Both the position numbers and the translations under genes were made by a program. From assembly GCF_055900595.2 (NCBI RefSeq), contig NZ_CM148325.1: a stretch of 64,000 nt of DNA. One strand, given 5' to 3'. Under the pieces are notes generated by a model, which saw only the letters and a list, made by a program, of their open reading frames with translations, made no database searches and was not told the origin of the DNA. Positions 27,147-39,721 of this stretch are shown here, piece by piece. Numbering within the stretch: position 1 is the stretch's first letter; every line of letters begins with the position of its first letter.

Positions 27147-27827
27147 TCACAGGTTAAAGGTGTTGATAAGTTTATGGATGAAAGAGAAATGTGGCAGGGC
27201 GGAGATAAAACGCTCTTCAGCGACCAGACTGTGGATGTGGCCTCTCCGTTCAAACCGTTCTGATGTCAGGCTGACTGATTTGATATCTGCCAGAGGAAAG
27301 ACCTGCAGTTTTCCCTTCTGTAACGCGATCAGATACCAGCTACCGCTGTAATAAATGAGCCGGCAGGGCTCCAGTGACGGATACCATCGCTCAGCCATCA
27401 GAGAGATGTGGATACACTGTCTTATTGCCAGGATGAGTTGCGAGAAACACTCGGGGAACGTTGCAGTGATATCCGGCGCCGGTAGCCAGATAAGGCAGGG
27501 AGAGGGCTCCTGGTTGTCGGTAAGACAGGTTATCAGTCGTCCGTTCCGGAGCGGAAGTATCCGTGCGATCCCCGTATTCTGTATAAAAGAAAGCATTTCA
27601 GGGATCGCACCTGGGCTGCTCTGTCGTCTGAGGCTGTACCTGCCATTTCTGTACTCTAAATCCAGGTGAACCAGACGCTGATGAAAATCGCGCTGTAAAG
27701 TACGTTCTGTAACGCCAAATTCATCTGACAGTGTTTTTAGTGACAGAGATTCTCCGGCCATCAGTCGGCTGATAATGAGTGATAAGCGAACCGCCAGGCG
27801 ATCATGCCGGGAACGATTATCAGACAT
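27147..27827 (-). CDS. YfjR-like HTH transcriptional regulator (226 aa)
   Basis: N-terminal HTH (...SLKTLSDEFGVTERTLQRDF...) plus C-terminal WYL-like domain; position as in CP4-57 (recall). Confidence 0.7.
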   Translation of the reverse strand: MSDNRSRHDRLAVRLSLIISRLMAGESLSLKTLSDEFGVTERTLQRDFHQRLVHLDLEYRNGRYSLRRQSSPGAIPEMLSFIQNTGIARILPLRNGRLITCLTDNQEPSPCLIWLPAPDITATFPECFSQLILAIRQCIHISLMAERWYPSLEPCRLIYYSGSWYLIALQKGKLQVFPLADIKSVSLTSERFERRGHIHSLVAEERFISALPHFSFIHKLINTFNL

Positions 27828-28029: not shown

Positions 28030-28914
28030 TCAGAACAGACGATCCCACAGTGTGACCAGCAGGTGGATAATGCGGTCCCGGGCTTTACGCAGAAGCTGTA
28101 ACATCCAGGCCGGAAAGCTGAACCGGGCAACGGCGTCGTCAAAGCTTTTCCCGATGGTTTCACCAAAAGTCTGTTGTGCGTGTTTCCGGGCCTGTTCAGA
28201 GCGGTTTTCCCCCCGGATATGTGAATAAACTGCGCTGGTTGCCTGTGGTGGCAGTGCGTGGATCATCAGCGACACAAACGCCGGAAGGTTCCAGCCGACA
28301 GATGCGGCAACGGAGAGTACCGGAAATGATGACGGGAACAGGGTGGCCACCCGGGCTGTTACTGTCGCCAGTGAGAGTTCCTGCTGACGGGACGGGCATT
28401 TTTCTGTGTCGTTCCATTCTTCAGCAGGAAACACGCGATCGGCATGGCTGAGAATAAACAGAAAGCGCGAGGGATCTGCGCCCTCATTCAGTAAAAACTG
28501 ATGCATGGCAATATCGGCAGCATACGCACGTTCATCAGCCCGCAGGATCCAGATAATCAGATCCAGTTCCGGTAGCAGCTGACGATAAAGTGTCCGGTAT
28601 TCCTGATCATGCTGCGGTGTTTCACCAATGCCGGGCAGATCGACCAGCGTCATTCTGCGTTCACCGAGCTGCAGAGTAAGACGATGAGCCTGGCGGGTGC
28701 AGCCGTTCAGGGGATGCGTGGCGCAGATACGGGACTGAAAAATGGCATTACACAGACTGCTTTTGCCGGTACCGGATTTACCCATAATGCCAATCACGGG
28801 CTCGTAATGAATAACATCGTGGAGATGTTCAAGGATTTTCTGGCGAATTTCTTCAGGAAGAAACGTCAGATATGATTTTACTTGTGCAGAGAGGGAAGAA
28901 TGGCTGAATGACAT
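28030..28914 (-). CDS. YfjP/YeeP/YkfA-family GTPase (294 aa)
   Basis: P-loop GIMGKSGTGKSSL and DLPG switch motif; recalled CP4-island GTPase family. Confidence 0.85.
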   Translation of the reverse strand: MSFSHSSLSAQVKSYLTFLPEEIRQKILEHLHDVIHYEPVIGIMGKSGTGKSSLCNAIFQSRICATHPLNGCTRQAHRLTLQLGERRMTLVDLPGIGETPQHDQEYRTLYRQLLPELDLIIWILRADERAYAADIAMHQFLLNEGADPSRFLFILSHADRVFPAEEWNDTEKCPSRQQELSLATVTARVATLFPSSFPVLSVAASVGWNLPAFVSLMIHALPPQATSAVYSHIRGENRSEQARKHAQQTFGETIGKSFDDAVARFSFPAWMLQLLRKARDRIIHLLVTLWDRLF

Positions 28915-29027
28915 ACCGGTATCCTGTTGATTTCACTGAACCGGATCACAGTAATCCGGTTTATCATTCAGGTAATATGGGCGTATAATTATTTCCATTT
29001 TTAATGGAATATATTCGGAGGTAATAA

Positions 29028-29987
29028 ATGACAGGATTATCTGAGCAGGCAAAAGAACTTCATATGATGATGGGGCGGAGAAAACCGCCGAAGATACAGG
29101 CTGTTCTTAACACCCGATACTGGAAAAACACAGAAAAAACGATAAAAAGAACTGTAGGTATGAATATTCATACGCTCAGTCAGTGGTGTGGAGAACAATA
29201 TGAGAAGATGTTTATTTCAAAAGTGGCAGAAGTCTATATGCTCCACCATACGGCAGCAATATTGAGGCGTAAAGGAGTTTATGTGGATGTTTTTAAGATT
29301 CCCTCAAAAATAATGAACCCGCCTGAAGCGAGAGCCAATTGTACTGGTTGCCCTTCTTCTCAGAATGTCTCTCATTTTTTTGCTGATTCTGAGCCTAACA
29401 TCATAAATTTTTCTGAAAGTATAAGAATAAATTATTCATATACTCTAGTTCCAGCCTATATAAGGAAAAAAGTCTCATCTCTGATGGGGGATTCAGAACT
29501 TCGTTATGTGTATTCATTTCCCGGTAGTTTATATTCTTATCTTCTTGAGAAACATCCATTGTCAGAAGTTAAAAAACTGATGGAGGATTTGCCTTCAACG
29601 GAAGATGAAAACTTCAGGAGGAGTGAAACAGGTAGCCAGTATTTGAAGGGGATTCTCGGTGTAAAAACAAGAGTATCTGAACTTTTTATAAGGCAGTTTT
29701 CTTTGCCGTTTAGATTTCTCCACACTAAAGAATATGTAAGAGACGTCATATTTAAGCCTGTAGAAAATGATATGTCGTTAAGTGAAGAACTGGCCCATGT
29801 GTTATTTTTTACATTATTGCATTCGGATATAATGTCCAGGTTTAGTTTAAGAGAATTATTCTTCAGAATAGAAAGTGGACGTGATAATAATAAGAAAAGG
29901 GATCTTATACGCGAATATGTAAGCGATGTAACAAAAGAATATTCGTTATGTATACCTGGCATAGTCAGTCGGCACGATAAAAAATAG
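29028..29987 (+). CDS. Orphan hypothetical protein (319 aa), AT-rich
   Basis: Strong RBS ggaggtaataaATG; divergent from the GTPase gene; GC clearly lower than neighbours; no recognisable motif. Confidence 0.6.
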   Translation: MTGLSEQAKELHMMMGRRKPPKIQAVLNTRYWKNTEKTIKRTVGMNIHTLSQWCGEQYEKMFISKVAEVYMLHHTAAILRRKGVYVDVFKIPSKIMNPPEARANCTGCPSSQNVSHFFADSEPNIINFSESIRINYSYTLVPAYIRKKVSSLMGDSELRYVYSFPGSLYSYLLEKHPLSEVKKLMEDLPSTEDENFRRSETGSQYLKGILGVKTRVSELFIRQFSLPFRFLHTKEYVRDVIFKPVENDMSLSEELAHVLFFTLLHSDIMSRFSLRELFFRIESGRDNNKKRDLIREYVSDVTKEYSLCIPGIVSRHDKK

Positions 29988-30043
29988 TCAGTATCATCCC
30001 GTGCATATGATGTATGGTCGGGATGAAATGGTGAACGTGGTGG

Positions 30044-30847
30044 TTATTGTATCGCCCAGTATGCCCTGGTAATGAGTTCCTTTATGATTTCTGACTTACT
30101 TTTGTTTTCTTTCTGCGCGATAAAAAGAAGTTGCTGATACTGAAAATCCTTAAGACGAATATTTACCTGTTTATCTGTTCCTGAACTGACTGACATCTGT
30201 TGGTTATTCCGGGAGTGAATTCGCGCACGCGCTCGGCTCTTTCTTTTATAAAACGCTGCATTCATCTTTCTGAGTAACATGTTCTTTATCTCAATATCGT
30301 CGGCAGGGTTGTTTTCAATAAGACAGGTATCGAAAAAAGCATTAATGAGAAGCTTTCGTTCAGTATTATTCTGAGGCTGAATGTGTTGCAGGCCGCTCAG
30401 GGAAAATAATCGTTTTTTCTTAATGTAATTCCATGACCATTCTGTGTCATCAGTTCCCTCCCGAAAGTGTCGTGGAACGTGGATATTATCAAAGGTGAAT
30501 GCCCATTCATTTTCCATACGATAACAGAACTGAGCTATCTGATTTATATTAAAACGGGAGCGCATGAAGGATATCCAGTCACGTAATACCTTTTTCCTTT
30601 TTTCATGGGTGTCAGGGTATGAGGGAAAATGGTATTCACGATAGGGTATTGATTCGGGCGCAGAACCGCGCTGAAAAATCCCCATCTTCTTATAACTGGC
30701 TTTACTGATATAAAGCCATACCCAGAACACGACTCTTTTATTATTCAACCACCCGGTGCCACCCCGTTTTGCTGTGGTTGTTGTACCAGGAAAAATGACA
30801 AGAAATATTTCTGGTTTTATTAAATCGGAAATGCCATCTGCGCTCAT
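30044..30847 (-). CDS. Orphan hypothetical protein (267 aa) with C-terminal ribbon-helix-helix-like segment
   Basis: RBS ggaggtacaaacATG; AT-rich; C-terminus ...VNIRLKDFQYQQLLFIAQKENKSKSEIIKELITRAY resembles an RHH DNA-binding fold; convergent with the 319-aa gene. Confidence 0.6.
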   Translation of the reverse strand: MSADGISDLIKPEIFLVIFPGTTTTAKRGGTGWLNNKRVVFWVWLYISKASYKKMGIFQRGSAPESIPYREYHFPSYPDTHEKRKKVLRDWISFMRSRFNINQIAQFCYRMENEWAFTFDNIHVPRHFREGTDDTEWSWNYIKKKRLFSLSGLQHIQPQNNTERKLLINAFFDTCLIENNPADDIEIKNMLLRKMNAAFYKRKSRARARIHSRNNQQMSVSSGTDKQVNIRLKDFQYQQLLFIAQKENKSKSEIIKELITRAYWAIQ

Positions 30848-31889
30848 GTTTGTACCTCCATTAAATTATTAAATACTGACATTTTTATGATATGTCAGTC
30901 AATTAGTTTTGTGATATGCCCATGTCGTCTTAGAAGAACAATGACGAGTCTGTATTATGGGGGATTAAATACATGCCCTAAGATTGTAACATATAAAGTC
31001 ATGGAACTGGTCTTTATGGTGTATTATTGTTACATGTAGTTAACATTATGGGTTATGTTATGCCCTTCCTGTATGTCCGGAGGATGTTGCTGTTCTGTGT
31101 GTGTCAGCGAGTGGGAAGACTGGCAGGAAGACGGTATTGAGCAGGATAAAAGTATGCGATGTCTGAGCAAAGAAAAGTGTGTACGATGGGCGTCATTATC
31201 AGGATGTCGGGTAACCACGGAAGGTTATTCAAAAAGGAAATGATGGATTACAGATGCGCAATATCGGCGCGGTTTTTTGGCGCGATTTTGTTGATTTTTA
31301 TATATCAGCACCATCTGTGACGTTGTCACATGGTGATAATTTCCTGATGTGTGTCCTTTATAACTGACAATATTTCAATGAAGTATGAGAATAAACGGTA
31401 ATATGCAGGTGTCAGAAGAAATGTTTACGATGGCCATCTCTTGTCATTATTGACGGAAATCTGCCTGATGTTCATCTCTTTTATCCGACGGTCAGATTTA
31501 CAGGGAGGGGATTCGCCTGAAAGATATCAGGTAATGCAGCTACCATGATAAAAACAGGTATCACTTCCTTTCGGGAAAAATAAATGTCCCGGTCTTCTGC
31601 ATGAGAATGTTTGTCAGACAGAAATGTCGTCTGAATCAGTTTTTTATCGCTGCCTGTTCGTTCGGTAAAGAACAGGATTATCGCTTGTCTGACTTACCTG
31701 AATGAATATGCCAGAATGATGTTATACTCCCGTTGTGTTGTGGAAATTTTTCAGGTGAAAAACATCCCGACAGGGAAAATAATTCCAGAGTAAATTTGCT
31801 CCGTTTTCAGAACAAAAATCCCCATGCTGACCGTGAAAAACTGAAACCAACATTCAGTCTGTATGAGTGTCTGAGAATGTTGCTAATGT

Positions 31890-32100
31890 CGGTATGATAC
31901 TATATACACGTATTTTACTAAGTATTATATACACCTATTTCATTAAGTATTTTTACTAAGCATTTCAATAAGTGTTATATACGTATTTTCTACTAAGTGT
32001 TTTACCAGACATACACGTATTTTCATAAACACTTCTACAAGTGTTTTCATTAAGTATTGCTATACACATTGCTTTGTCTGATACACATCCAGTTTAGTAA
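31890..32100. repeat. Iteron-like array of imperfect direct repeats (about 22-25 bp period) in AT-rich non-coding DNA
   Basis: Recurring units containing atacacgtatttt, tactaagt(g)tt and cattaagtat at 31903, 31929, 31981, 32010, 32037, 32061 and 32082. Confidence 0.55.
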
Positions 32101-32943
32101 ATTTGTTAGTCCTGTTTTTACGATAGCTAAAATCAGTTAACGTCACTACAAAACTTTCTGTCCTGTTTAAGCAGTCAATGTGCTATTCGATTTTACTGAT
32201 GTTACATTTAACCTTTTCTTAGTTTTTGTGTTTTTAGTCGTTAACCTGAGACAAGTGTCTTTATGTAAAAATGCAAATCCGGCTGAGATAACCTGGCGTG
32301 ATTTACTGTGTGCTTACGATGATTTTGTTAAATGGTTTTATGGATGATTTTGTAACGATGAGATTGATGAGATGATTAACTGGTCCTGGTGTTTTTTCTC
32401 AGTGCAAGGTGATTATCTTCATCATAAGGCTCTTTTCAGAAAAGCGTGATGATTGGTTCTGGTGTTTTGATTCAGATGAGGTTTACGTTATCGATGGTTA
32501 ATCGTTTTTATGGTGCGTAGTGAAAAGTAACGTTTTCAGTATAAGAAAATCGATTCTGATGTTGGTGGTTTTTGTTCTTGGGGTGGGGTGTCTGTAAACA
32601 GGTTTTAAACGCGCTATTCGGCTCTGTGATTGAGTTTTGTGGTTAAGCTGTAGGTTTTGGTATTGTTGTTGATTCACAGCAGCAGAAAGCGTTCTGATTG
32701 CGTTTTTGGTGTTTTGTTTGCACGTTCTGTTGATCCGTTTCCCTTCGGGCTTTGTAGTTTTTAAAAACCATTTATGCCGTTGTTGTGTGTTTTACCCTGC
32801 GTGTAGGTTTATCTTTTCTTCGTGGGGGATTCATTCTGTTTTAATCAGGAGCCATTGGCGTTGCTCAATGGCGGGATGCCGTAAAGTTTTACCGCGGTGA
32901 TTAATGATGTGAAGTCAATCCAAATCAACGGAGATCTCTCATC

Positions 32944-33675
32944 ATGAATCAACCAATACACAATGCTTACTGGTTATCCCGTTTTGACAGCCTTCTCGAC
33001 AGTGCCCTGGTGCAGCACCGTGCCGTCTCGTTAATTCGGGTGGATTTACGTTTTCCTGAGTATATGCCTGCCACTATTATGGATACCGATTTAGATTCAG
33101 CAGTGATTTCTCGTTTTTTCGAATCCCTGAAAGCAAAAATTCAGGCTTACCAGCGGAAAAAACGACGTGCCAACAAGCGTGTGCATGCAACCACTCTGCG
33201 TTATTTCTGGTGTCGGGAGTTTGGCAAGGAAAAAGGCAGGAAACATTATCACGTGATATTACTGCTCAACAAAGATACCTGGTGCTCGCCAGGGGATTTC
33301 ACCGTTCCTTCTTCGCTGGCGACGCTGATCAAGCTGGCATGGTGTAGCGCTCTGCATCTTGAGCCCTGGCAGGGTAATGGACTGGTTCATTTTTCCAGGC
33401 GGGCGCCTTTCCGTAAACCGACATCATCTGATGCTCGCCCTTCTTCCGATGATACGCCTTTGTCGGGTGGATGTTCTGATACCCGGAAAGCTTCTGACAA
33501 AAAATCTGGTGGATCCGCTGTGCTCTGGGTCAAGCGTGGTGATGTGGAAGCGATGCAGAAAGCCATGGAGAGAGCCTGTTATCTCGTGAAGTATGAGACG
33601 AAGCAGCATGACGGTTCTGGTCAACGTAATTATGGTTGCAGTCGTGGGCCGGGGCGTTTACTGGATGGCAGGTGA
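32944..33675 (+). CDS. Rep-like HUH protein (inovirus Gp2 / YfjJ-YagK family), 243 aa
   Basis: HUH-type motif KHYHVILLLN; family recalled from CP4-type islands; conserved leader immediately upstream. Confidence 0.65.
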   Translation: MNQPIHNAYWLSRFDSLLDSALVQHRAVSLIRVDLRFPEYMPATIMDTDLDSAVISRFFESLKAKIQAYQRKKRRANKRVHATTLRYFWCREFGKEKGRKHYHVILLLNKDTWCSPGDFTVPSSLATLIKLAWCSALHLEPWQGNGLVHFSRRAPFRKPTSSDARPSSDDTPLSGGCSDTRKASDKKSGGSAVLWVKRGDVEAMQKAMERACYLVKYETKQHDGSGQRNYGCSRGPGRLLDGR

Positions 33676-34106
33676 GCCCTGTAAAACGGCATCCGGTGCC
33701 TGAGCATACGTCACGTAATTAACTGTCTTGACCAACAAAATTATGGAGTAACCTGATGGCAGGATTCATTACATTTCTTTGTTCTTTCTGAGTATCGCAT
33801 TCAGGATGGTCAGCAGTTTGCGCATACAGGCTACCAGCACCGCCGTAGTCATTACGCCGATGCCTTTAATGTTGCTCAGGTGCTCAGCTGGTTCTTTAAA
33901 ATGGTTCCGGATGTGGGTGTTCATCTTCCAGCGCTTTGATGATATTAATGTTTTTTTTGCTTTGCGGGTGAGCCGGGTACAACCTGTTTTGCTCAGTAAC
34001 TGGCATTGCGATCAACTGGTGTCTGCAAACGACTATGGCATTAAGAACCTGACGTTCTGCATCCGGCAAAGTCCGGATAAAGCGGTCTCGTTCCGGATGG
34101 TAATTA

Positions 34107-34262
<156 letters not shown>

Positions 34263-34442
34263 TCAACACAAAGGCCATATCGTGCTGCCTCAGTTCAGCG
34301 ATGATGAAATCAACGCCGTCAGCACCACTGGCAACAGAAAACCGTTCAATAGTGTTGCTGGCGGTAATATCCAGCGTTGTTTTGGACACATCGGTATCAA
34401 CACAAAGTGGATTTGGCAGACTCATTATTGCCCATTCTTGCT

Positions 34443-34485
<43 letters not shown>

Positions 34486-34858
34486 TGGCTCAGCGTATGC
34501 GCCATTTGCTTACATATGGGCTTAAACCCTAAGGGGCACCAGGCTGCATACGCTTTGCCAAATCTGTTCGCTGCTCATGATAACGAAGAACCAGGATACA
34601 AGGTGGAAGATCCTCAACGCTCAGGGGCGCAATGTTCCCTGTGTTTCATGCCCCCATCGTTTGTTGCTGTGGTGCCAGACTTCTGAGGCACCTCCATGTC
34701 GTTTTGCTTTTGTCAGCATCATAAATGCGTCGGGACTGGTGAATGGATACAAGTCATTTTATTATCGACGTCAGCGAACATACTCACTATGTCGGTATAT
34801 TTCTGAACTGAACAGTAAGTTTTGCGTTGATTACAGTATGCGAAGGAGGTCCATTACA

Positions 34859-36463
34859 ATGAATCCCGATTATGTGCAATCCTTGCAGACATCCCACCAC
34901 TTCCCAGCTGATTTAACCTACAGATTATTTCCTAGTGAGCTTGCGTATCTCATTGACGACTTATATGAAAGTACCCAACTTCCGTTGGAGCTCATTTTTA
35001 ATACTGTACTGGCAACGCTCTCACTCTCCTGTCAGTCATTGGTTGACGTTGTTCATCCTCACACCAACATGCCGGAACCCTGCTCACTTTATCTGTTGGC
35101 AATCGCAGAGCCAGGCGCGGGAAAAACAACGATAAACAGACTGGTGATGAACCCCTGTTACGAATTTGCCGATCGACTCATTCAACAATACGAAGAGAGA
35201 AACAAAGATTATAAGACTGAACTACAGATCTGGAATACCCGGCAGAAAGCGCTTGCTGCCAATTTAAGAAAGGTTGTTAACCGGGGGTATCCGGGGGAAC
35301 AGGAAGAAGAGGCGCTGCGTAATCACGAAAGAAATAAACCGACACGTCCGGTTCGACCGAATTTTATCTATGAAGATGTTTCGCTTAAAGCGCTTGTGGA
35401 AGGGCTCAATGAACATCCTGAGGCAGGGGTTATTTCTGATGAGGCGGTCACTTTTTTCAGAAGCTATCTGAAAAATTATCCGGGCCTGTTGAATAAAGCA
35501 TGGAGTGGGCAACCGTTTGATTTTGGACGGGCTGACGAGAAATACCATATCGCGCCACGTCTGACATTTTCGTTAATGTCTCAGCCGGATGTCTTTACGA
35601 ATTATATAAATAAAAATGACGTACTGGCGTGGGGAAGCGGATTTCTTTCCCGGTTTCTGTTCAGTCAGGTTGTAAGTTCTTCCTGGATACGTGATTATAC
35701 GAGAGGTGAGTTCAGAACAATATCAACCCTGGAGAACTTTCATAAAAAGATTAACGGATTCCTGTTAAACCACAACATTAATTTCCCCGGCATGAGCACC
35801 GAAAGGAAGACATTAAAACTTGCGAAGAAAGCGTTGGGGGAGTGGCAGGAAAACCAGATTAAGATTGAAAGAAAAGCGCTTGCAGGCGGGGAGTGGGAAC
35901 ACATCAGAGATATTGTTCTGAAAGCAGGCTCTAATATACTGAGGATAGCTGGAATATTCACCTGCTATTGCTATAAAGATGCTGAGGAAATTGAATCAAT
36001 TACGCTTTTTAAAGCTATGCATCTCATGGACTGGTATCTGGAGGAGGCGAGCACAATATTTTATCCCATGTCTGCACGATGCCAGTTTGAACAGGATGCC
36101 TGTGAACTGTATGCATGGATTATGACCCGAATAAGGCAGAATAATTGGCGTGCTATCAGGAAAACAGACATTGAAAGATATGGTCCCAATCGACTGAGAA
36201 GAGCAGAAAAACTTACACCTGTACTCAATCAGTTAATCTGTCAGGGGTATTTATGTATCATCAGAATGCGATCGCATCAGGCACTTTATGTTTCTGTTTA
36301 TTGTAACAATGGTTACCTCCTTCCTTTAGGCGCAATGTATTACGAACAGTTTGATATTGTTCTACCCGAGAATATTCATAAAGCGAAAGCATATCACGTT
36401 AATATTCCACCGGAATTAATTCCGTCATTTGCGTCACCTTTTTCAGAGTATAGCTTATTTTGA
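34859..36463 (+). CDS. DUF3987-type P-loop protein (YfjI-like, primase-associated family), about 534 aa
   Basis: Track ORF 34577..36463 trimmed to MNPDYV with strong RBS aaggaggt; Walker A-like AEPGAGKTT. Confidence 0.65.
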   Translation: MNPDYVQSLQTSHHFPADLTYRLFPSELAYLIDDLYESTQLPLELIFNTVLATLSLSCQSLVDVVHPHTNMPEPCSLYLLAIAEPGAGKTTINRLVMNPCYEFADRLIQQYEERNKDYKTELQIWNTRQKALAANLRKVVNRGYPGEQEEEALRNHERNKPTRPVRPNFIYEDVSLKALVEGLNEHPEAGVISDEAVTFFRSYLKNYPGLLNKAWSGQPFDFGRADEKYHIAPRLTFSLMSQPDVFTNYINKNDVLAWGSGFLSRFLFSQVVSSSWIRDYTRGEFRTISTLENFHKKINGFLLNHNINFPGMSTERKTLKLAKKALGEWQENQIKIERKALAGGEWEHIRDIVLKAGSNILRIAGIFTCYCYKDAEEIESITLFKAMHLMDWYLEEASTIFYPMSARCQFEQDACELYAWIMTRIRQNNWRAIRKTDIERYGPNRLRRAEKLTPVLNQLICQGYLCIIRMRSHQALYVSVYCNNGYLLPLGAMYYEQFDIVLPENIHKAKAYHVNIPPELIPSFASPFSEYSLF

Positions 36464-38027
36464 AATAACCTTACACAGATAAAACAAAATCAACCAACCT
36501 TCATTCGGAGGTTGGTGATAAGGCGTTTTGCATATCCTGCACCTATGCAAATGTTCACCAATTATGGGGGGTGAATGAGAATTTCTCTGAAAAAACCGCT
36601 ACGGTAGCAACAGTAGCAGCACATGCACCACATCTGTGATTTAATTTTGTTTTCATAATGACCTGCTGTCAGAGCTGGTTGAATACAGGAGTGTGCGCAC
36701 TGGTGGAAGCATGGCTTTCGTTTTTTTATTGATCGAAAGTGAATCGAAAGATTATTTTTAACATAGATTAAAGCTAATCATTAACCATATTGTGTGAGTT
36801 TTCATATATAACTTCGTTTGATTTTTGTCGTGATGAGTGCAGGTGTATATGATAATGTTGGTCTCTGCCTGAATAACGAATGGTTATCACTGTTACTGAA
36901 AAGAGATGCTGTTCAAGTTTGCATTTCAATAGGAGAGTGAAGAAAAATGATTTGATATTTTTTTCTGTAAGATAATGGTTTGTCATGTTCGTATTCAGAA
37001 CGGATGATTTCTTATTTTTACTCATCAAACATGGATAATTTTAATTTAGGTTTATTACTATAATTAGTATCTACCCCTTTATTTATCATCCATCTCTGCC
37101 CTTCATTTTCCCTCTCTGTCTTTACACATTCCATTACTCTTATTCTCATCCAGTTATATTCACTCCCTTCCTTGTCTAATCTGCATTGTCACCATTATCA
37201 TGGTATCCACCTTCTCCATTCCTCAATCATAACTACTGTAACTCATATGATACTCAGATAAGTTATTCTCTACTACGCTATTGCTGATATCCATCTGTTC
37301 CTGTTTTCAGTAAAATAATAATTTATTTTAATTTTATCTATCATGAGCTGTATTTGCTTAACAATGATTGTTTATCTGATATGTTTTAACCATTCCGGTA
37401 AATATCAATACTTCTGTCATCACTGATTAACTGAATGTTTACTCTTTGATAAGGTGTCCATGATTTCGTCATGTTTAACAGTGCAGGATAAACAATGAAA
37501 TTAACAGAGTGAATTCCTGATTATGTTTTTTTCGGGTTGTATTGTTTAAGATGCAGGGTAAAAATCATGCCAGTGGTATTTTTTACTCTGGTAATGTGTG
37601 CGGTTAACGTTCATGTCCTTAAGAACAGATTGGATGAGGGCGTATAAGTTTATTGTGTTGGCCTTGTATACGTTTTTTTTAGAACCACTGAGAGCAAGTT
37701 TGTAGTTTATGATGTTATTGGTCGTAATATGTTTCTTGAACTTCTGGTCGTGGGTTTTTATCGCGTGTTTTGCAGTATTTTGTGATGTTTATTGATTCTG
37801 TATTTTATTCGCTCCTCGTTTATCTCATCTCTTTAGCTAATACCATCAGATAATCCATTTATTTCTGCACAACGCTACGTGTCGTTAATAACCGACGTAT
37901 CCATTCTGTTACAGCATGCCTGATAAATACCGTCTGTAAGTTATTACCGTTTTAGATCTGATTATGAGCGAAAGCATTAATTCGTTTACAGCACTTAAAA
38001 CGTCATTAACTTTCAGGAGTCATCAGC

Positions 38028-38594
38028 ATGCCTAAATCTTACACACCAAACTGGTTTTTTACCGCTTTACTTGACAATCACATCAATCAAATGATGGCAC
38101 GCTATTCCTGCCTGCGGGCCTTACGCATGGATTTCTTCTACAGGAAAGATACGCCTGATTTCTTACAACCTGATCATCGCTGGCTTGAATTGCAGTTGCG
38201 TATGCTGCTGGAGCAGGTGGAACAATTTGAAAATATCGTTGGCTTCTTCTGGGTGATTGAATGGACGGCTGATCATGGTTTTCATGCGCATGCGGTTTTC
38301 TGGATCGATCGTCAGAGGGTTAAAAAAATATATCCCTTTGCGGAGCGGATTACGGAATGCTGGCGGTCTATTACGCATAACAGTGGTTCGGCACACCGCT
38401 GTACATATCAGCCGCATTATACATACAACATCAACATTCCTGTGCGCCACAACGATCCTGAAAGCATCGATAATATTCGCGGTGCCCTGCATTATCTGGC
38501 GAAAGAAGAACAAAAAGACGGGCTGTGTGCCTACGGCTGCAATGAAGTTCCTGAACGTCCTGCTGCAGGGCGTCCTCGTAAGCCTCACTTCTGA
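38028..38594 (+). CDS. Rep-like HUH protein (inovirus Gp2 / YfjJ family), 188 aa
   Basis: HUH-type motif HGFHAHAVFWID; same GT-rich leader architecture upstream as the 32944 gene. Confidence 0.6.
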   Translation: MPKSYTPNWFFTALLDNHINQMMARYSCLRALRMDFFYRKDTPDFLQPDHRWLELQLRMLLEQVEQFENIVGFFWVIEWTADHGFHAHAVFWIDRQRVKKIYPFAERITECWRSITHNSGSAHRCTYQPHYTYNINIPVRHNDPESIDNIRGALHYLAKEEQKDGLCAYGCNEVPERPAAGRPRKPHF

Positions 38595-38708
38595 AGCTTA
38601 AGGCCTGAGCCTCCGCTCCTGGAAACACTCCGTCGGTAAAACCTTACCGCCTTGATTAATGATGTGAACTGAAGTCAACGGAGATCATTCACCCTGAACC
38701 TGCATCCG

Positions 38709-39416
38709 GTGTTCTGTCCCTTATCTTCCCGTTCTGCTTCAGTTCTTCACTTATTCCATCAATCTCATCCGCAAGCCATAACACGTCAGCTCATTCACGG
38801 GCAGGACGCATTGTGGGCTGCGCATAACGGAACATATCTTATGAATGCTATTCCTTATTTCGACTATAGCCTGGCACCCTTCTGGCCATCTTATCAGAAC
38901 AAAGTCATCGGCGTCCTTGAGCGTGCGCTGCGTGAGCAGTCCGGCTCACGGATACGGCGGATCCTGCTTCGTCTGCCGTGGGAACATGACAACGCCTTCA
39001 ACAGCAGACAGACCTGGTTTGGTATGGATTTTATCGAAACCGTCAGTGCGCTGATGAATGCGAAACCCGGACGCGACCTTTGCTGGCTCCTGACCCGTCA
39101 TCCGGAAAAGCCGGAATACCACGTGGTGCTGTGCGTCAGACAGGAGTATTTCGACGGCCCCGAACTGGACCGGCTGATTCTGGATGCCTGGAGCAACGTA
39201 CTGGGCTTCGCGTCACCGGGGGAAGCGGCACCGTACCAGAAACAGATAACCCGGGATGTGGTGCTGGACAGTCGTTCACCGGACTGCGAAGACATCCTCA
39301 AAGATTTGATCTGGGCGTTCAGTGATTTCGCCCGCGATCGTCGTGGTGTGTGCGATCCGGAAGCCCGTTGCCTCGCCGGTAATCCCGGCTATCCCGGATC
39401 TGCAGGACCGTTCTGA
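38709..39416 (+). CDS. Hypothetical island protein (235 aa by track; true start uncertain)
   Basis: Track ORF upstream of alpA; the conserved leader motif precedes it but no ATG follows at the expected distance. Confidence 0.4.
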   Translation: MFCPLSSRSASVLHLFHQSHPQAITRQLIHGQDALWAAHNGTYLMNAIPYFDYSLAPFWPSYQNKVIGVLERALREQSGSRIRRILLRLPWEHDNAFNSRQTWFGMDFIETVSALMNAKPGRDLCWLLTRHPEKPEYHVVLCVRQEYFDGPELDRLILDAWSNVLGFASPGEAAPYQKQITRDVVLDSRSPDCEDILKDLIWAFSDFARDRRGVCDPEARCLAGNPGYPGSAGPF

Positions 39417-39484
39417 GAATACGGCTCAGCACCTTTCCCCGCATTCGCACAACCTTCATAAATCTCACAGAGGATATTCTGACC

Positions 39485-39721
39485 ATGTTGACCTCAATGA
39501 CAGGCCACGACTGCGTGTTGCTGCGTGCCGACGATCCCCTGATCGACATGAACTACATCACCAGTTTCACCGGTATGACAGATAAATGGTTTTACAAGCT
39601 GATCAGTGAAGGCCATTTCCCGAAACCCATCAAGCTGGGCCGCAGCAGCCGCTGGTACAAAAGTGAAGTGGAGCAGTGGATGCAGCAGCGAATTGAGGAA
39701 TCACGAGGAGCAGCAGCATGA
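39485..39721 (+). CDS. AlpA-family phage regulatory/excisionase-like protein
   Basis: ...MNYITSFTGMTDKWFYKLISEGHFPKPIKLGRSSRWYKSEVEQWMQQR fits the AlpA wHTH family; start may be the internal Met at 39548. Confidence 0.7.
   Translation: MLTSMTGHDCVLLRADDPLIDMNYITSFTGMTDKWFYKLISEGHFPKPIKLGRSSRWYKSEVEQWMQQRIEESRGAAA

What the first reader, a model, noticed from the sequence alone, without database searches (positions are those of the whole stretch)
28915..30900. Convergent pair of AT-rich orphan genes next to the YfjP-like GTPase: candidate novel defence or toxin module
Two well-formed genes (319 aa on plus, 267 aa on minus), each with a strong Shine-Dalgarno, lie between the CP4-type GTPase gene and 1.9 kb of AT-rich non-coding DNA. 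Their GC content is clearly lower than the flanking island genes, suggesting separate, recent acquisition. I recognise neither protein. The 267-aa protein ends in a ribbon-helix-helix-like segment attached to an unknown N-terminal domain. In E. coli K-12 the equivalent slot beside yfjP holds the rnlAB toxin-antitoxin/anti-phage pair, so this position behaves as a variable cargo hotspot.
Basis: partly seen in the sequence, partly recalled or inferred. Interest (0 to 1): 0.7.

Follow-up and report, generated by a model that had tools for sequence, protein, structure and literature searches.

The report
Conserved island gene pair, one hypervariable
The two "orphan" genes are real, but they are an old, fast-evolving two-gene module built into a common family of enterobacterial genomic islands, made of a DNA-binding protein and an unusually variable partner, and its function has not been tested.

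Summary
Both genes exist as described: ORF-A (29028-29987, +, 319 aa) and ORF-B (30044-30847, -, 267 aa). Each has a GGAGG ribosome-binding site and lower GC (0.37 and 0.40) than the neighbouring GTPase gene (0.53). Both are under purifying selection.

They are not recently acquired orphans. ORF-B belongs to an uncharacterised family of Enterobacteriaceae (17-38% identity). Family members lie next to the YfjP-like GTPase in most CP4-57-type islands sampled, and usually divergent from alpA. Every short-form member sampled is convergent with an ORF-A homologue. The low GC recurs in all lineages.

The ORF-B model (pLDDT 80) shows an all-alpha N-domain with no solved relative and a C-terminal ribbon-helix-helix. 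A unique palindrome overlaps its putative promoter.

Within E. coli (42 of 5426 complete genomes) ORF-B is at least 95% identical, whereas ORF-A falls to 62% protein identity. ORF-A is mosaic, with diversity 0.175 against 0.02-0.05 in the flanks.

No defence, toxin, Pfam or PDB match was found for ORF-A or the ORF-B N-domain. Best reading (0.4): an island regulatory or immunity-like switch. A novel defence or toxin module is not excluded (0.25).

The parts
28030..28914 (-). YfjP-like GTPase gene (context). It is the first gene of the long same-strand backbone block: WYL regulator, DUF932, antirestriction, RadC/JAB, CbeA/CbtA.
   Evidence: Era/Der-type GTPase domain. Among alleles dS is 0.124 and dN/dS 0.15.
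28915..29027 (.). Divergent control region of 113 nt between the GTPase gene and ORF-A. It holds a promoter-like site TTATCA-17-TATAAT at 28961-28989 (+) and the ORF-A ribosome-binding site GGAGG at 29017-29021.
   Evidence: The first 70-85 nt are shared by 1666 E. coli genomes. Diversity among alleles is 0.018.
29028..29987 (+). ORF-A, 319 aa. It is predicted all-alpha and belongs to an uncharacterised family with motifs W32-x-N-T-E/Q-K/R..KR, V66..Y70.L72, P142..IR.K, F164.GSLY and L259-F-F.
   Evidence: There are no Pfam, PADLOC, NCBIfam, PHROG or PDB hits.
29100..30060 (.). Hypervariable block: the ORF-A body plus the 56-nt spacer between the convergent stop codons. Diversity is 0.13-0.30 per 60 nt, with sharp borders.
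   Evidence: dS is 0.41 against 0.12 (GTPase) and about 0.1 (ORF-B). Mosaic blocks are present and 13% of site pairs fail the four-gamete test.
29298..29432 (+). Codons about 91-135 of ORF-A. This Cys-containing insert of about 40 aa is absent from ORF-A homologues of the other lineages and is the least constrained part (pN/pS 0.9-1.0).
30044..30847 (-). ORF-B, 267 aa. All-alpha N-domain (residues about 31-220), a long linker helix and a C-terminal ribbon-helix-helix. Ribosome-binding site GGAGG (complement at 30855-30859).
   Evidence: The AlphaFold2 model has pLDDT 79.9. dN/dS is 0.05-0.24. It is at least 95% identical in all 42 genomes.
30047..30178 (-). Ribbon-helix-helix DNA-binding domain of ORF-B (residues about 224-267).
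   Evidence: PHROG repressor families match at 2e-3 to 0.03 and Pfam RHH_1 at 0.09. Among family members RepB-RCR_reg matches 3 of 13, RHH_1 2 and RHH_10 1, all at E<=1e-3. RepA2/CopB-like PRK13702 matches at 3.5e-6 but below its cutoff. The model has coil-helix-helix topology. DinJ and small viral RHH proteins superpose at 2-3 A.
30875..30899 (.). Palindrome ACTGACAT-N9-ATGTCAGT, 28-52 nt upstream of the ORF-B start codon, overlapping its promoter-like site. It is a candidate operator.
   Evidence: It is unique in the 64-kb window, where 0.05 copies are expected by chance. It is kept in sister alleles. TGACAT-N7-ATGTCAGTATTT is also present upstream of the orthologue in L008, which is only 38% identical. 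A promoter-like site lies at 30915-30887. DNA binding is inferred, not shown.
30848..31770 (.). Lineage-specific non-coding DNA upstream of ORF-B. It travels with the pair in the same 42 genomes.
   Evidence: No Rfam family matches.

Best explanation
The pair is a conserved, fast-evolving backbone module of CP4-57-type integrative islands of Enterobacteriaceae, not imported cargo.

ORF-B is a DNA-binding regulator. Its C-terminal ribbon-helix-helix domain probably dimerises and probably binds the palindrome that overlaps its own promoter (autorepression). It may also bind the neighbouring control regions of alpA, the Gp2-like replication gene or the GTPase operon. Its large all-alpha N-domain would receive a signal or a partner protein.

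ORF-A is transcribed divergently from the GTPase operon and convergently with ORF-B. It is the specificity or sensor component. Old, recombining alleles of ORF-A are maintained inside nearly identical flanks. This is the pattern seen in immunity regions of temperate phages and in master repressors of phage satellites, where co-resident or competing elements select for distinct specificities.

Shown: gene reality, synteny, the RHH domain, the asymmetric diversity and the palindrome. Inferred: DNA binding, autoregulation, an A-B interaction and the regulatory role.
For: Synteny:
- In most loci sampled, ORF-B homologues lie beside the GTPase, either directly or with only the ORF-A homologue between; L021 is an exception. 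In six loci they are divergent from alpA with a gap of 343-769 nt.
- All eight short-form lineages carry a convergent ORF-A homologue.
- In the two long-form lineages ORF-B heads the GTPase block directly, with gaps of 82 and 122 nt.
- A diverged version of the pair (320 + 284 aa) fills the same slot in 190 other E. coli genomes.

DNA-binding domain and candidate operator:
- RHH domain.
- A unique palindrome lies on the ORF-B promoter and is conserved upstream of an orthologue only 38% identical.
- ORF-A shares a 113-nt divergent control region with the GTPase gene, conserved in 1666 genomes.

Diversity and composition:
- Diversity is 0.175 in ORF-A against 0.018-0.047 in the flanks. dS is 3-4 times higher and the gene is mosaic.
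- Up to 5 such islands occur per genome, which gives scope for cross-talk.
- Neither family has an obvious conserved catalytic residue set.
- Low GC persists in all lineages.
Against: - No experiment or expression data exist.
- The RHH matches are individually weak or below curated cutoffs.
- Palindromes with 7-nt arms are not rare in AT-rich DNA, and only the window/L008 pair shares one.
- If ORF-A contacted ORF-B through its variable surface, ORF-B should co-vary. It does not: it stays 96-99% identical while ORF-A drops to 62%.
- ORF-A overall has dN/dS of 0.4, and no segment is clearly above 1, so positive selection is not demonstrated.
- The ORF-A structure could not be modelled (pLDDT 44.5).
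- In this window alpA is 8.7 kb away, so the alpA-adjacent switch architecture is not intact here.
Confidence: 0.4

Rival explanations
1. The pair is a novel anti-phage defence, abortive-infection or toxin-antitoxin-like module. ORF-A would be the effector or the phage-sensing specificity subunit, kept diverse by an arms race. ORF-B would be the RHH-bearing regulator or antitoxin that holds it in check.
For: - The same island position in K-12 holds two defence systems, AbpAB and RnlAB.
- Sister islands carry TIR, restriction and type I R-M cargo nearby.
- ORF-A has deep mosaic allelic diversity inside conserved flanks.
- RHH domains are common in antitoxins, and HicB-type antitoxins also carry one at the C-terminus (a weak HicB/VapB-type hit appears).
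- The neighbouring WYL regulator and GTPase give weak PADLOC hits.
Against: - Neither the E. coli proteins nor ten diverse family members gave a significant PADLOC hit to a defence-effector family; the only sub-1e-3 hit was P0033 to a winged-helix model (5e-5).
- The genes are convergent and not co-transcribed, unlike type II TA operons.
- Both are large, and no nuclease, NTPase or membrane-toxin signature is conserved.
- The module is syntenic backbone and not variable cargo.
- Two lineages keep ORF-B without ORF-A, and at least one keeps an ORF-A-like gene without ORF-B. This is unexpected for an obligate toxin-antitoxin pair.
- It is absent from phages, true plasmids and IMG/VR.
Confidence: 0.25
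2. The pair is a replication or copy-number control module for the excised island. ORF-B would act like CopG (RCR plasmids) or CopB/RepA2 (IncFII plasmids), repressing the Gp2-like/YagK-YfjJ rolling-circle initiator gene. The upstream region of that gene carries iteron-like repeats. ORF-A would be an accessory factor.
For: - The best profile matches of the ORF-B family C-terminus are to replication-regulator RHH families: Pfam RepB-RCR_reg and NCBIfam PRK13702 RepA.
- The next gene on the ORF-B upstream side is an inovirus Gp2-family gene, 32944-33675.
- Iteron-like repeats of 25 nt lie at 31898-32060 between them.
Against: - RHH similarity is generic, and all these hits are below the curated cutoffs.
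- CopG and CopB are 45-86 aa and sit in the rep operon. ORF-B is 267 aa, and its gene is 2.1 kb from the Gp2-like gene and divergent from it.
- In other lineages alpA, not the rep-like gene, is the immediate neighbour.
- The palindrome is not repeated near the Gp2-like gene.
Confidence: 0.15
3. The ORFs are decaying or chance reading frames in AT-rich junk DNA.
For: They have low GC, no database annotation, and lie next to 2 kb of non-coding DNA.
Against: - Both frames are intact in 42 of 42 genomes.
- dN/dS is 0.05-0.24 for ORF-B and about 0.4 for ORF-A.
- Both have strong ribosome-binding sites.
- Homologues at 17-38% identity keep the same length, motifs and synteny.
- The ORF-B fold is predicted with confidence.
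Confidence: 0.02

Closest known systems
Ribbon-helix-helix repressors: CopG (pMV158), CopB/RepA2 (R1/R100), Arc and Mnt (P22)
   Same: The C-terminal roughly 45 residues of ORF-B have beta-alpha-alpha topology and weak profile matches to these families. A palindrome overlaps the promoter, as with the CopG and Arc operators.
Immunity and master-repressor modules of mobile elements: lambdoid immunity regions, P22 immI (Mnt/Arc/Ant), SaPI Stl
   Same: ORF-B is a DNA-binding protein with a larger putative sensor domain and is divergent from an activator gene (alpA) in most lineages. A partner of about 300 aa sits beside an RHH protein, as Ant does beside Arc and Mnt. Deep, mosaic allelic diversity lies inside conserved flanks.
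   Different: There is no sequence or fold relation to cI, Stl or Ant. The genes are convergent. The variable gene is the non-RHH partner and not the DNA-binding protein. No helper or inducer is known.
RnlAB and AbpAB of E. coli K-12 CP4-57
   Same: They occupy the corresponding island interval between the YfjJ-type gene and yfjP.
   Different: There is no homology. rnlA and rnlB are co-directional and overlapping, whereas this pair is convergent. RnlAB and AbpAB are strain-specific cargo, whereas this pair is syntenic across genera.
HicB-type antitoxins (N-terminal domain plus C-terminal RHH)
   Same: The domain order is the same: a non-DNA-binding N-domain followed by an RHH.
   Different: The HicB N-domain is a small RNase-H-like fold paired with a 60-aa HicA toxin in an operon. 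The ORF-B N-domain is a 200-aa helical bundle, and its neighbour is a convergent 319-aa protein.

Membership tests
Ribbon-helix-helix (CopG/Arc/MetJ) DNA-binding superfamily (ORF-B C-terminus) | Sequence-profile match to RHH families | tested here: inconclusive
   ORF-B itself matches Pfam RHH_1 at 0.09 and PHROG repressor families at 2e-3 to 0.03. Among 13 family members, RepB-RCR_reg matches 3, RHH_1 2 and RHH_10 1 at E<=1e-3. NCBIfam PRK13702 matches at 3.5e-6 but scores 27 bits against a cutoff of 87.
Ribbon-helix-helix (CopG/Arc/MetJ) DNA-binding superfamily (ORF-B C-terminus) | Beta-strand, helix, helix topology of about 45 residues | tested here: met
   The AlphaFold2 model shows an extended segment at 221-233 and helices at 234-247 and 251-266, with pLDDT 85-90. 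It superposes on DinJ (43 residues, 2.4 A) and on small viral CopG proteins (40-48 residues, 2-3 A).
Ribbon-helix-helix (CopG/Arc/MetJ) DNA-binding superfamily (ORF-B C-terminus) | Dimerises and binds repeated DNA sub-sites | not testable with these tools
   Only a candidate operator was found, the palindrome at 30875-30899.
Type II toxin-antitoxin system | Two small co-directional genes in one operon, usually overlapping or a few nt apart | tested here: not met
   The genes are convergent and encode 319 and 267 aa. The arrangement is the same in all eight lineages that have both genes.
Type II toxin-antitoxin system | Toxin belongs to a recognisable toxin fold or family | tested here: not met
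   The ORF-A family gave no Pfam, NCBIfam, PADLOC or PDB hit. The ORF-A model was too poor for a fold search.
Type II toxin-antitoxin system | The two genes are strictly co-inherited | tested here: inconclusive
   Co-occurrence is 42 of 42 in E. coli. However, long-form ORF-B occurs without ORF-A, and an ORF-A-like gene occurs without ORF-B in O157 strain 86-24.
Known anti-phage defence systems (PADLOC-DB v2.0.0) | HMM match to a component of a described or candidate system | tested here: not met
   Both window proteins gave 0 families. For ten diverse family members the only hits were Cas11f at 0.012 and a winged-helix model at 5e-5 for P0033. Systems described after 2023 were not searched.
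Known anti-phage defence systems (PADLOC-DB v2.0.0) | Behaves as variable cargo in a defence hotspot | tested here: not met
   The module keeps its position and partners across genera and is replaced by diverged versions of itself. In K-12 the corresponding interval does carry defence cargo instead.
CopG/CopB-type replication copy-number repressors | Small RHH-only protein encoded in, or immediately upstream of, the rep operon it represses | tested here: not met
   ORF-B is 267 aa. Its gene is divergent from the Gp2-like gene and 2.1 kb away. In other lineages the immediate neighbour is alpA.
Diversity-generating retroelement target | Adenine-specific substitutions and a nearby template repeat and reverse transcriptase | tested here: not met
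   The substitution spectrum is ordinary and dominated by transitions. There is no template-like repeat and no reverse transcriptase in the annotation.

The most novel reading that the evidence does not exclude
ORF-A and ORF-B form a previously unrecognised conflict system carried in the backbone of CP4-57-type islands. It could be an anti-phage or anti-element defence, or an inter-island immunity system. ORF-A would be the specificity determinant: its old, recombining alleles would each recognise a different invader or rival-island protein. ORF-B would couple that recognition to transcription of the island's GTPase/antirestriction/CbtA block, or to its excision.
Probability: 0.25. Interest if true: 0.75.

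Novelty: new variant of a known kind. Interest (0 to 1): 0.5.

Why it matters
CP4-57-type islands are among the commonest accessory elements of E. coli. Their GTPase-upstream segment occurs in 1666 of 5426 complete genomes, with up to five copies per genome. Related islands occur in Salmonella, Klebsiella and Citrobacter, and they ferry defence, toxin-antitoxin and virulence cargo. How these islands are regulated is poorly known beyond AlpA.

This work identifies two uncharacterised protein families that occupy the control end of the island. One is an RHH DNA-binding protein with a new helical domain. The other is a locally hypervariable, recombining gene. Together with a candidate operator, they give a concrete and testable handle on island regulation, or on a new conflict system.

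Tried and rejected
Searches that found nothing:
- Pfam, NCBIfam, PHROGs and PADLOC on both proteins and on ten diverse relatives found nothing beyond the RHH.
- PDB sequence searches gave no hit for ORF-B and a single insignificant one for ORF-A (E 0.29).
- Two scans of species-representative genomes and one of IMG/VR found no relatives. The first attempt failed for lack of conserved stretches.
- Plasmid and phage tblastn searches returned only two chromosome-sized Klebsiella records filed as plasmids.
- Rfam gave no credible RNA.
- Literature searches by accession and by theme found nothing on these genes.

Failed or poor computations:
- AlphaFold2 of ORF-A with eight close alleles gave pLDDT 44.5, too poor for a fold search.

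Hypotheses rejected:
- A degraded alpA lies next to ORF-B: there is no tblastn signal, and the alpA homologue is at 39530-39709.
- K-12 YfjH or YfjM is related to the pair: no.
- ORF-A and ORF-B are paralogues: hhalign probability 0.4%.
- ORF-A is diversified by a retroelement: rejected.
- The small ORFs at 30887-31243 are genes: they are broken in sister alleles.
Full report
**1. Observation**

The window holds ORF-A (29028..29987, +, 319 aa) and ORF-B (30044..30847, -, 267 aa), which converge with 56 nt between their stop codons. Each has a GGAGG 6-7 nt before its ATG. GC is 0.35-0.40 across 28750-31500, against 0.52-0.57 in the island genes to the left.

RefSeq annotates both as 'hypothetical protein'. 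They sit inside a CP4-57-type island next to cadC. The island order is: integrase remnant, RelE/ParD, DUF4942, CbtA/YeeU, RadC-like JAB, antirestriction, DUF932, WYL regulator, GTPase, the pair, about 2 kb without genes, then an inovirus-Gp2/YagK-YfjJ gene.

**2. Are they genes?**

Yes. The complete pair occurs in 42 of 5426 complete E. coli genomes, always together and always intact.
- ORF-B evolves under strong purifying selection (dN/dS 0.05-0.24).
- ORF-A evolves under weaker but clear constraint (dN/dS about 0.4).

**3. They are not orphans**

A word-indexed search found only Escherichia relatives. An exhaustive phmmer search with ORF-B found 16 proteins of 258-359 aa at 22-38% identity. 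They come from Salmonella, Citrobacter, Klebsiella and Kluyvera, and all are unnamed. The alignment (A3) has these features:
- Invariant residues W33, W44, Y69, R84, W115, W137, P158 and E163.
- A conserved C-terminal segment.

I read the genomic context of nine such lineages.
- In most, the ORF-B homologue lies next to the YfjP-like GTPase of the same island type, directly or with only the ORF-A homologue between. L021 is an exception, and one contig (L014) was too short to tell.
- In six loci it is divergent from an alpA gene, with a gap of 343-769 nt.
- Every short-form homologue (258-290 aa) whose contig reaches that far is followed by a convergent gene of 275-320 aa.
- The 3' ends of the two genes are separated by 6-178 nt or overlap by 4 nt.

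These partner genes are homologous to ORF-A. BLASTP gives 2e-24 and 3e-10. All of them align with shared motifs.

The two long-form lineages (347-359 aa) lack the partner and are followed directly by the GTPase gene.

Other E. coli islands that share only the 70-85 nt upstream of the GTPase gene were also sampled.
- Strain KSC9 carries a strongly diverged version of the same pair (320 + 284 aa). Profile E-values are 1.4e-45 and 5.5e-36 against models that did not include it. This version is complete in 190 genomes.
- O157 strain 86-24 has an ORF-A-like gene only.
- Strain 14EC020 has a frameshifted weak ORF-A-like gene.

K-12 CP4-57 instead has abpAB, yfjM and rnlAB there.

The GC step between the pair (0.33-0.44) and the GTPase gene (0.51-0.59) recurs in nine of the ten loci examined; L021 has a different, AT-rich GTPase. 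Low GC is therefore a property of the module and not evidence of recent import.

**4. ORF-B**

With alignment A3, AlphaFold2 gives a usable model (pLDDT 79.9, pTM 0.65). Its parts are:
- A helical domain at residues 31-180.
- A 40-residue helix ending in a basic stretch.
- A coil-helix-helix C-terminus.

The C-terminus is a ribbon-helix-helix. This rests on weak but repeated profile hits to Arc, CopG, RepB-RCR_reg and RepA2/CopB families and on superposition with DinJ and small viral CopG proteins.

A perfect palindrome, ACTGACAT-N9-ATGTCAGT (30875-30899), overlaps the promoter-like site upstream of ORF-B.
- It is unique in the 64-kb window, where 0.05 copies are expected by chance.
- It recurs upstream of the L008 orthologue, which is only 38% identical.

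Autoregulation through this site is an inference.

**5. ORF-A**

ORF-A is predicted all-alpha, and the model was poor (pLDDT 44.5). No family, defence or PDB match was found for it or for six diverse relatives. It is unrelated to ORF-B. Its conserved positions are mostly aromatic, aliphatic and basic, with no obvious catalytic set.

**6. The striking feature: asymmetric diversity**

In loci where ORF-B is 96-99% identical, ORF-A is only 62-82% identical. The table gives nucleotide diversity across eight alleles.

| Region | Nucleotide diversity |
|---|---|
| ORF-A | 0.175 |
| GTPase gene | 0.041 |
| Shared GTPase/ORF-A intergenic region | 0.018 |
| ORF-B | 0.024 |
| Non-coding DNA upstream of ORF-B | 0.047 |

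The borders of the variable block are sharp, near 29100 and 30060.

- Synonymous divergence is also 3-4 times higher in ORF-A (0.41 against 0.12 and about 0.1). The alleles are therefore old and are not merely evolving fast at the protein level.
- Blocks of the gene have different nearest relatives, and 13% of informative site pairs fail the four-gamete test. The gene is therefore a recombinant mosaic.
- The least constrained part (pN/pS 0.9-1.0) is an insert of about 40 aa, absent from the ORF-A homologues of the other lineages (codons 91-135).
- The substitution spectrum is ordinary, so no retroelement is involved.
- Among the 42 genomes, ORF-B is always at least 95% identical. ORF-A is at least 99% in 18 genomes, 95-99% in 6, 90-95% in 13, 80-90% in 1 and 60-80% in 4.

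**7. Interpretation**

The anatomy is:
- An RHH protein with a large second domain.
- A candidate operator on its own promoter.
- A position between alpA and the long GTPase-to-CbtA block.
- ORF-A sharing a compact divergent control region with the GTPase gene.
- No conserved catalytic residues.
- Persistence in the island backbone.

This anatomy fits a regulatory, immunity-like switch best (confidence 0.4). The maintenance of old ORF-A alleles inside young flanks is what one sees at immunity or specificity loci of mobile elements. E. coli genomes carry up to five such islands.

The same diversity pattern, and the defence cargo found at this position in K-12, keep a defence or toxin reading alive (0.25). 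Against it stand the convergent orientation, the lack of any defence or toxin signature, and the lineages that hold only one of the two genes.

A CopG/CopB-like control of the neighbouring Gp2-like replication gene is a narrower variant (0.15). Chance ORFs are excluded.

**8. Novelty**

Neither family is named in Pfam, NCBIfam, PHROGs or PADLOC, and no paper in the searchable library cites their accessions. The RHH regulator is a known kind. The N-domain, the ORF-A family and the conserved-plus-hypervariable pairing in the island backbone appear undescribed. I rate this a new variant of a known kind, with interest 0.5.

Noticed in passing
window 31898-32060: Iteron-like repeats of about 25 nt (TATATACACGTATTTTACTAAG and variants, at least 3-5 copies). 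They lie in AT-rich backbone DNA about 0.9 kb upstream of the inovirus-Gp2/YagK-YfjJ gene (32944-33675). This stretch (about 31770-32940) is shared by about 1877 E. coli genomes. It may be a replication origin for the excised island.
   Followed up: partly
window 28915-29000: The 70-85 nt upstream of the GTPase gene are conserved at 88-99% in 1666 of 5426 complete E. coli genomes, with up to 5 copies per genome. The sequence then diverges abruptly. In all four island types sampled, the gene that follows is an ORF-A-family member or a remnant of one.
   Followed up: partly
L015-L017 (8001-9080) and L022-L023 (5001-6044): Long-form ORF-B homologues (347-359 aa) in Klebsiella, Citrobacter and Salmonella have a low-complexity N-terminal extension of about 90 aa. 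They have no ORF-A partner and sit directly upstream of the GTPase gene on the same strand.
   Followed up: partly
window 31159-31320 (+): A 53-aa ORF with a hydrophobic C-terminus is intact in 7 of 8 alleles. It has no good ribosome-binding site and contains a terminator-like hairpin (31255-31271 plus a T-run). It could be a small transcript or could be chance.
   Followed up: partly
window 33700-39710: The truly variable cargo interval appears to lie here and not at the pair. This window has IS110 fragments, a YfjI-family (DUF3987) gene at 34577-36463, a second YagK-like gene (38016-38585) and alpA (39530-39709). Sister genomes with the identical pair carry a TIR-domain gene after the Gp2-like gene instead (L001, L018).
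   Followed up: partly
window 28030-28914 and 27147-27827: The YfjP-like GTPase gives a weak PADLOC hit to LeoBC of the Eleos/dynamin-type system (6.5e-6, C-terminal part only). The next gene is a WYL-domain regulator (2.6e-18), a regulator type often attached to defence loci.
   Followed up: no
L030 3001-4044 (E. coli 504239) and P0008/P0010: Some ORF-A alleles have lost the usual stop codon and run 8-28 codons further, overlapping the 3' end of ORF-B by 29 nt.
   Followed up: no
plasmid collection hits H183, H184: The only 'plasmid' matches to ORF-B are records of 5.37 Mb and 0.57 Mb from Klebsiella. These are almost certainly chromosomal sequence filed as plasmid.
   Followed up: no
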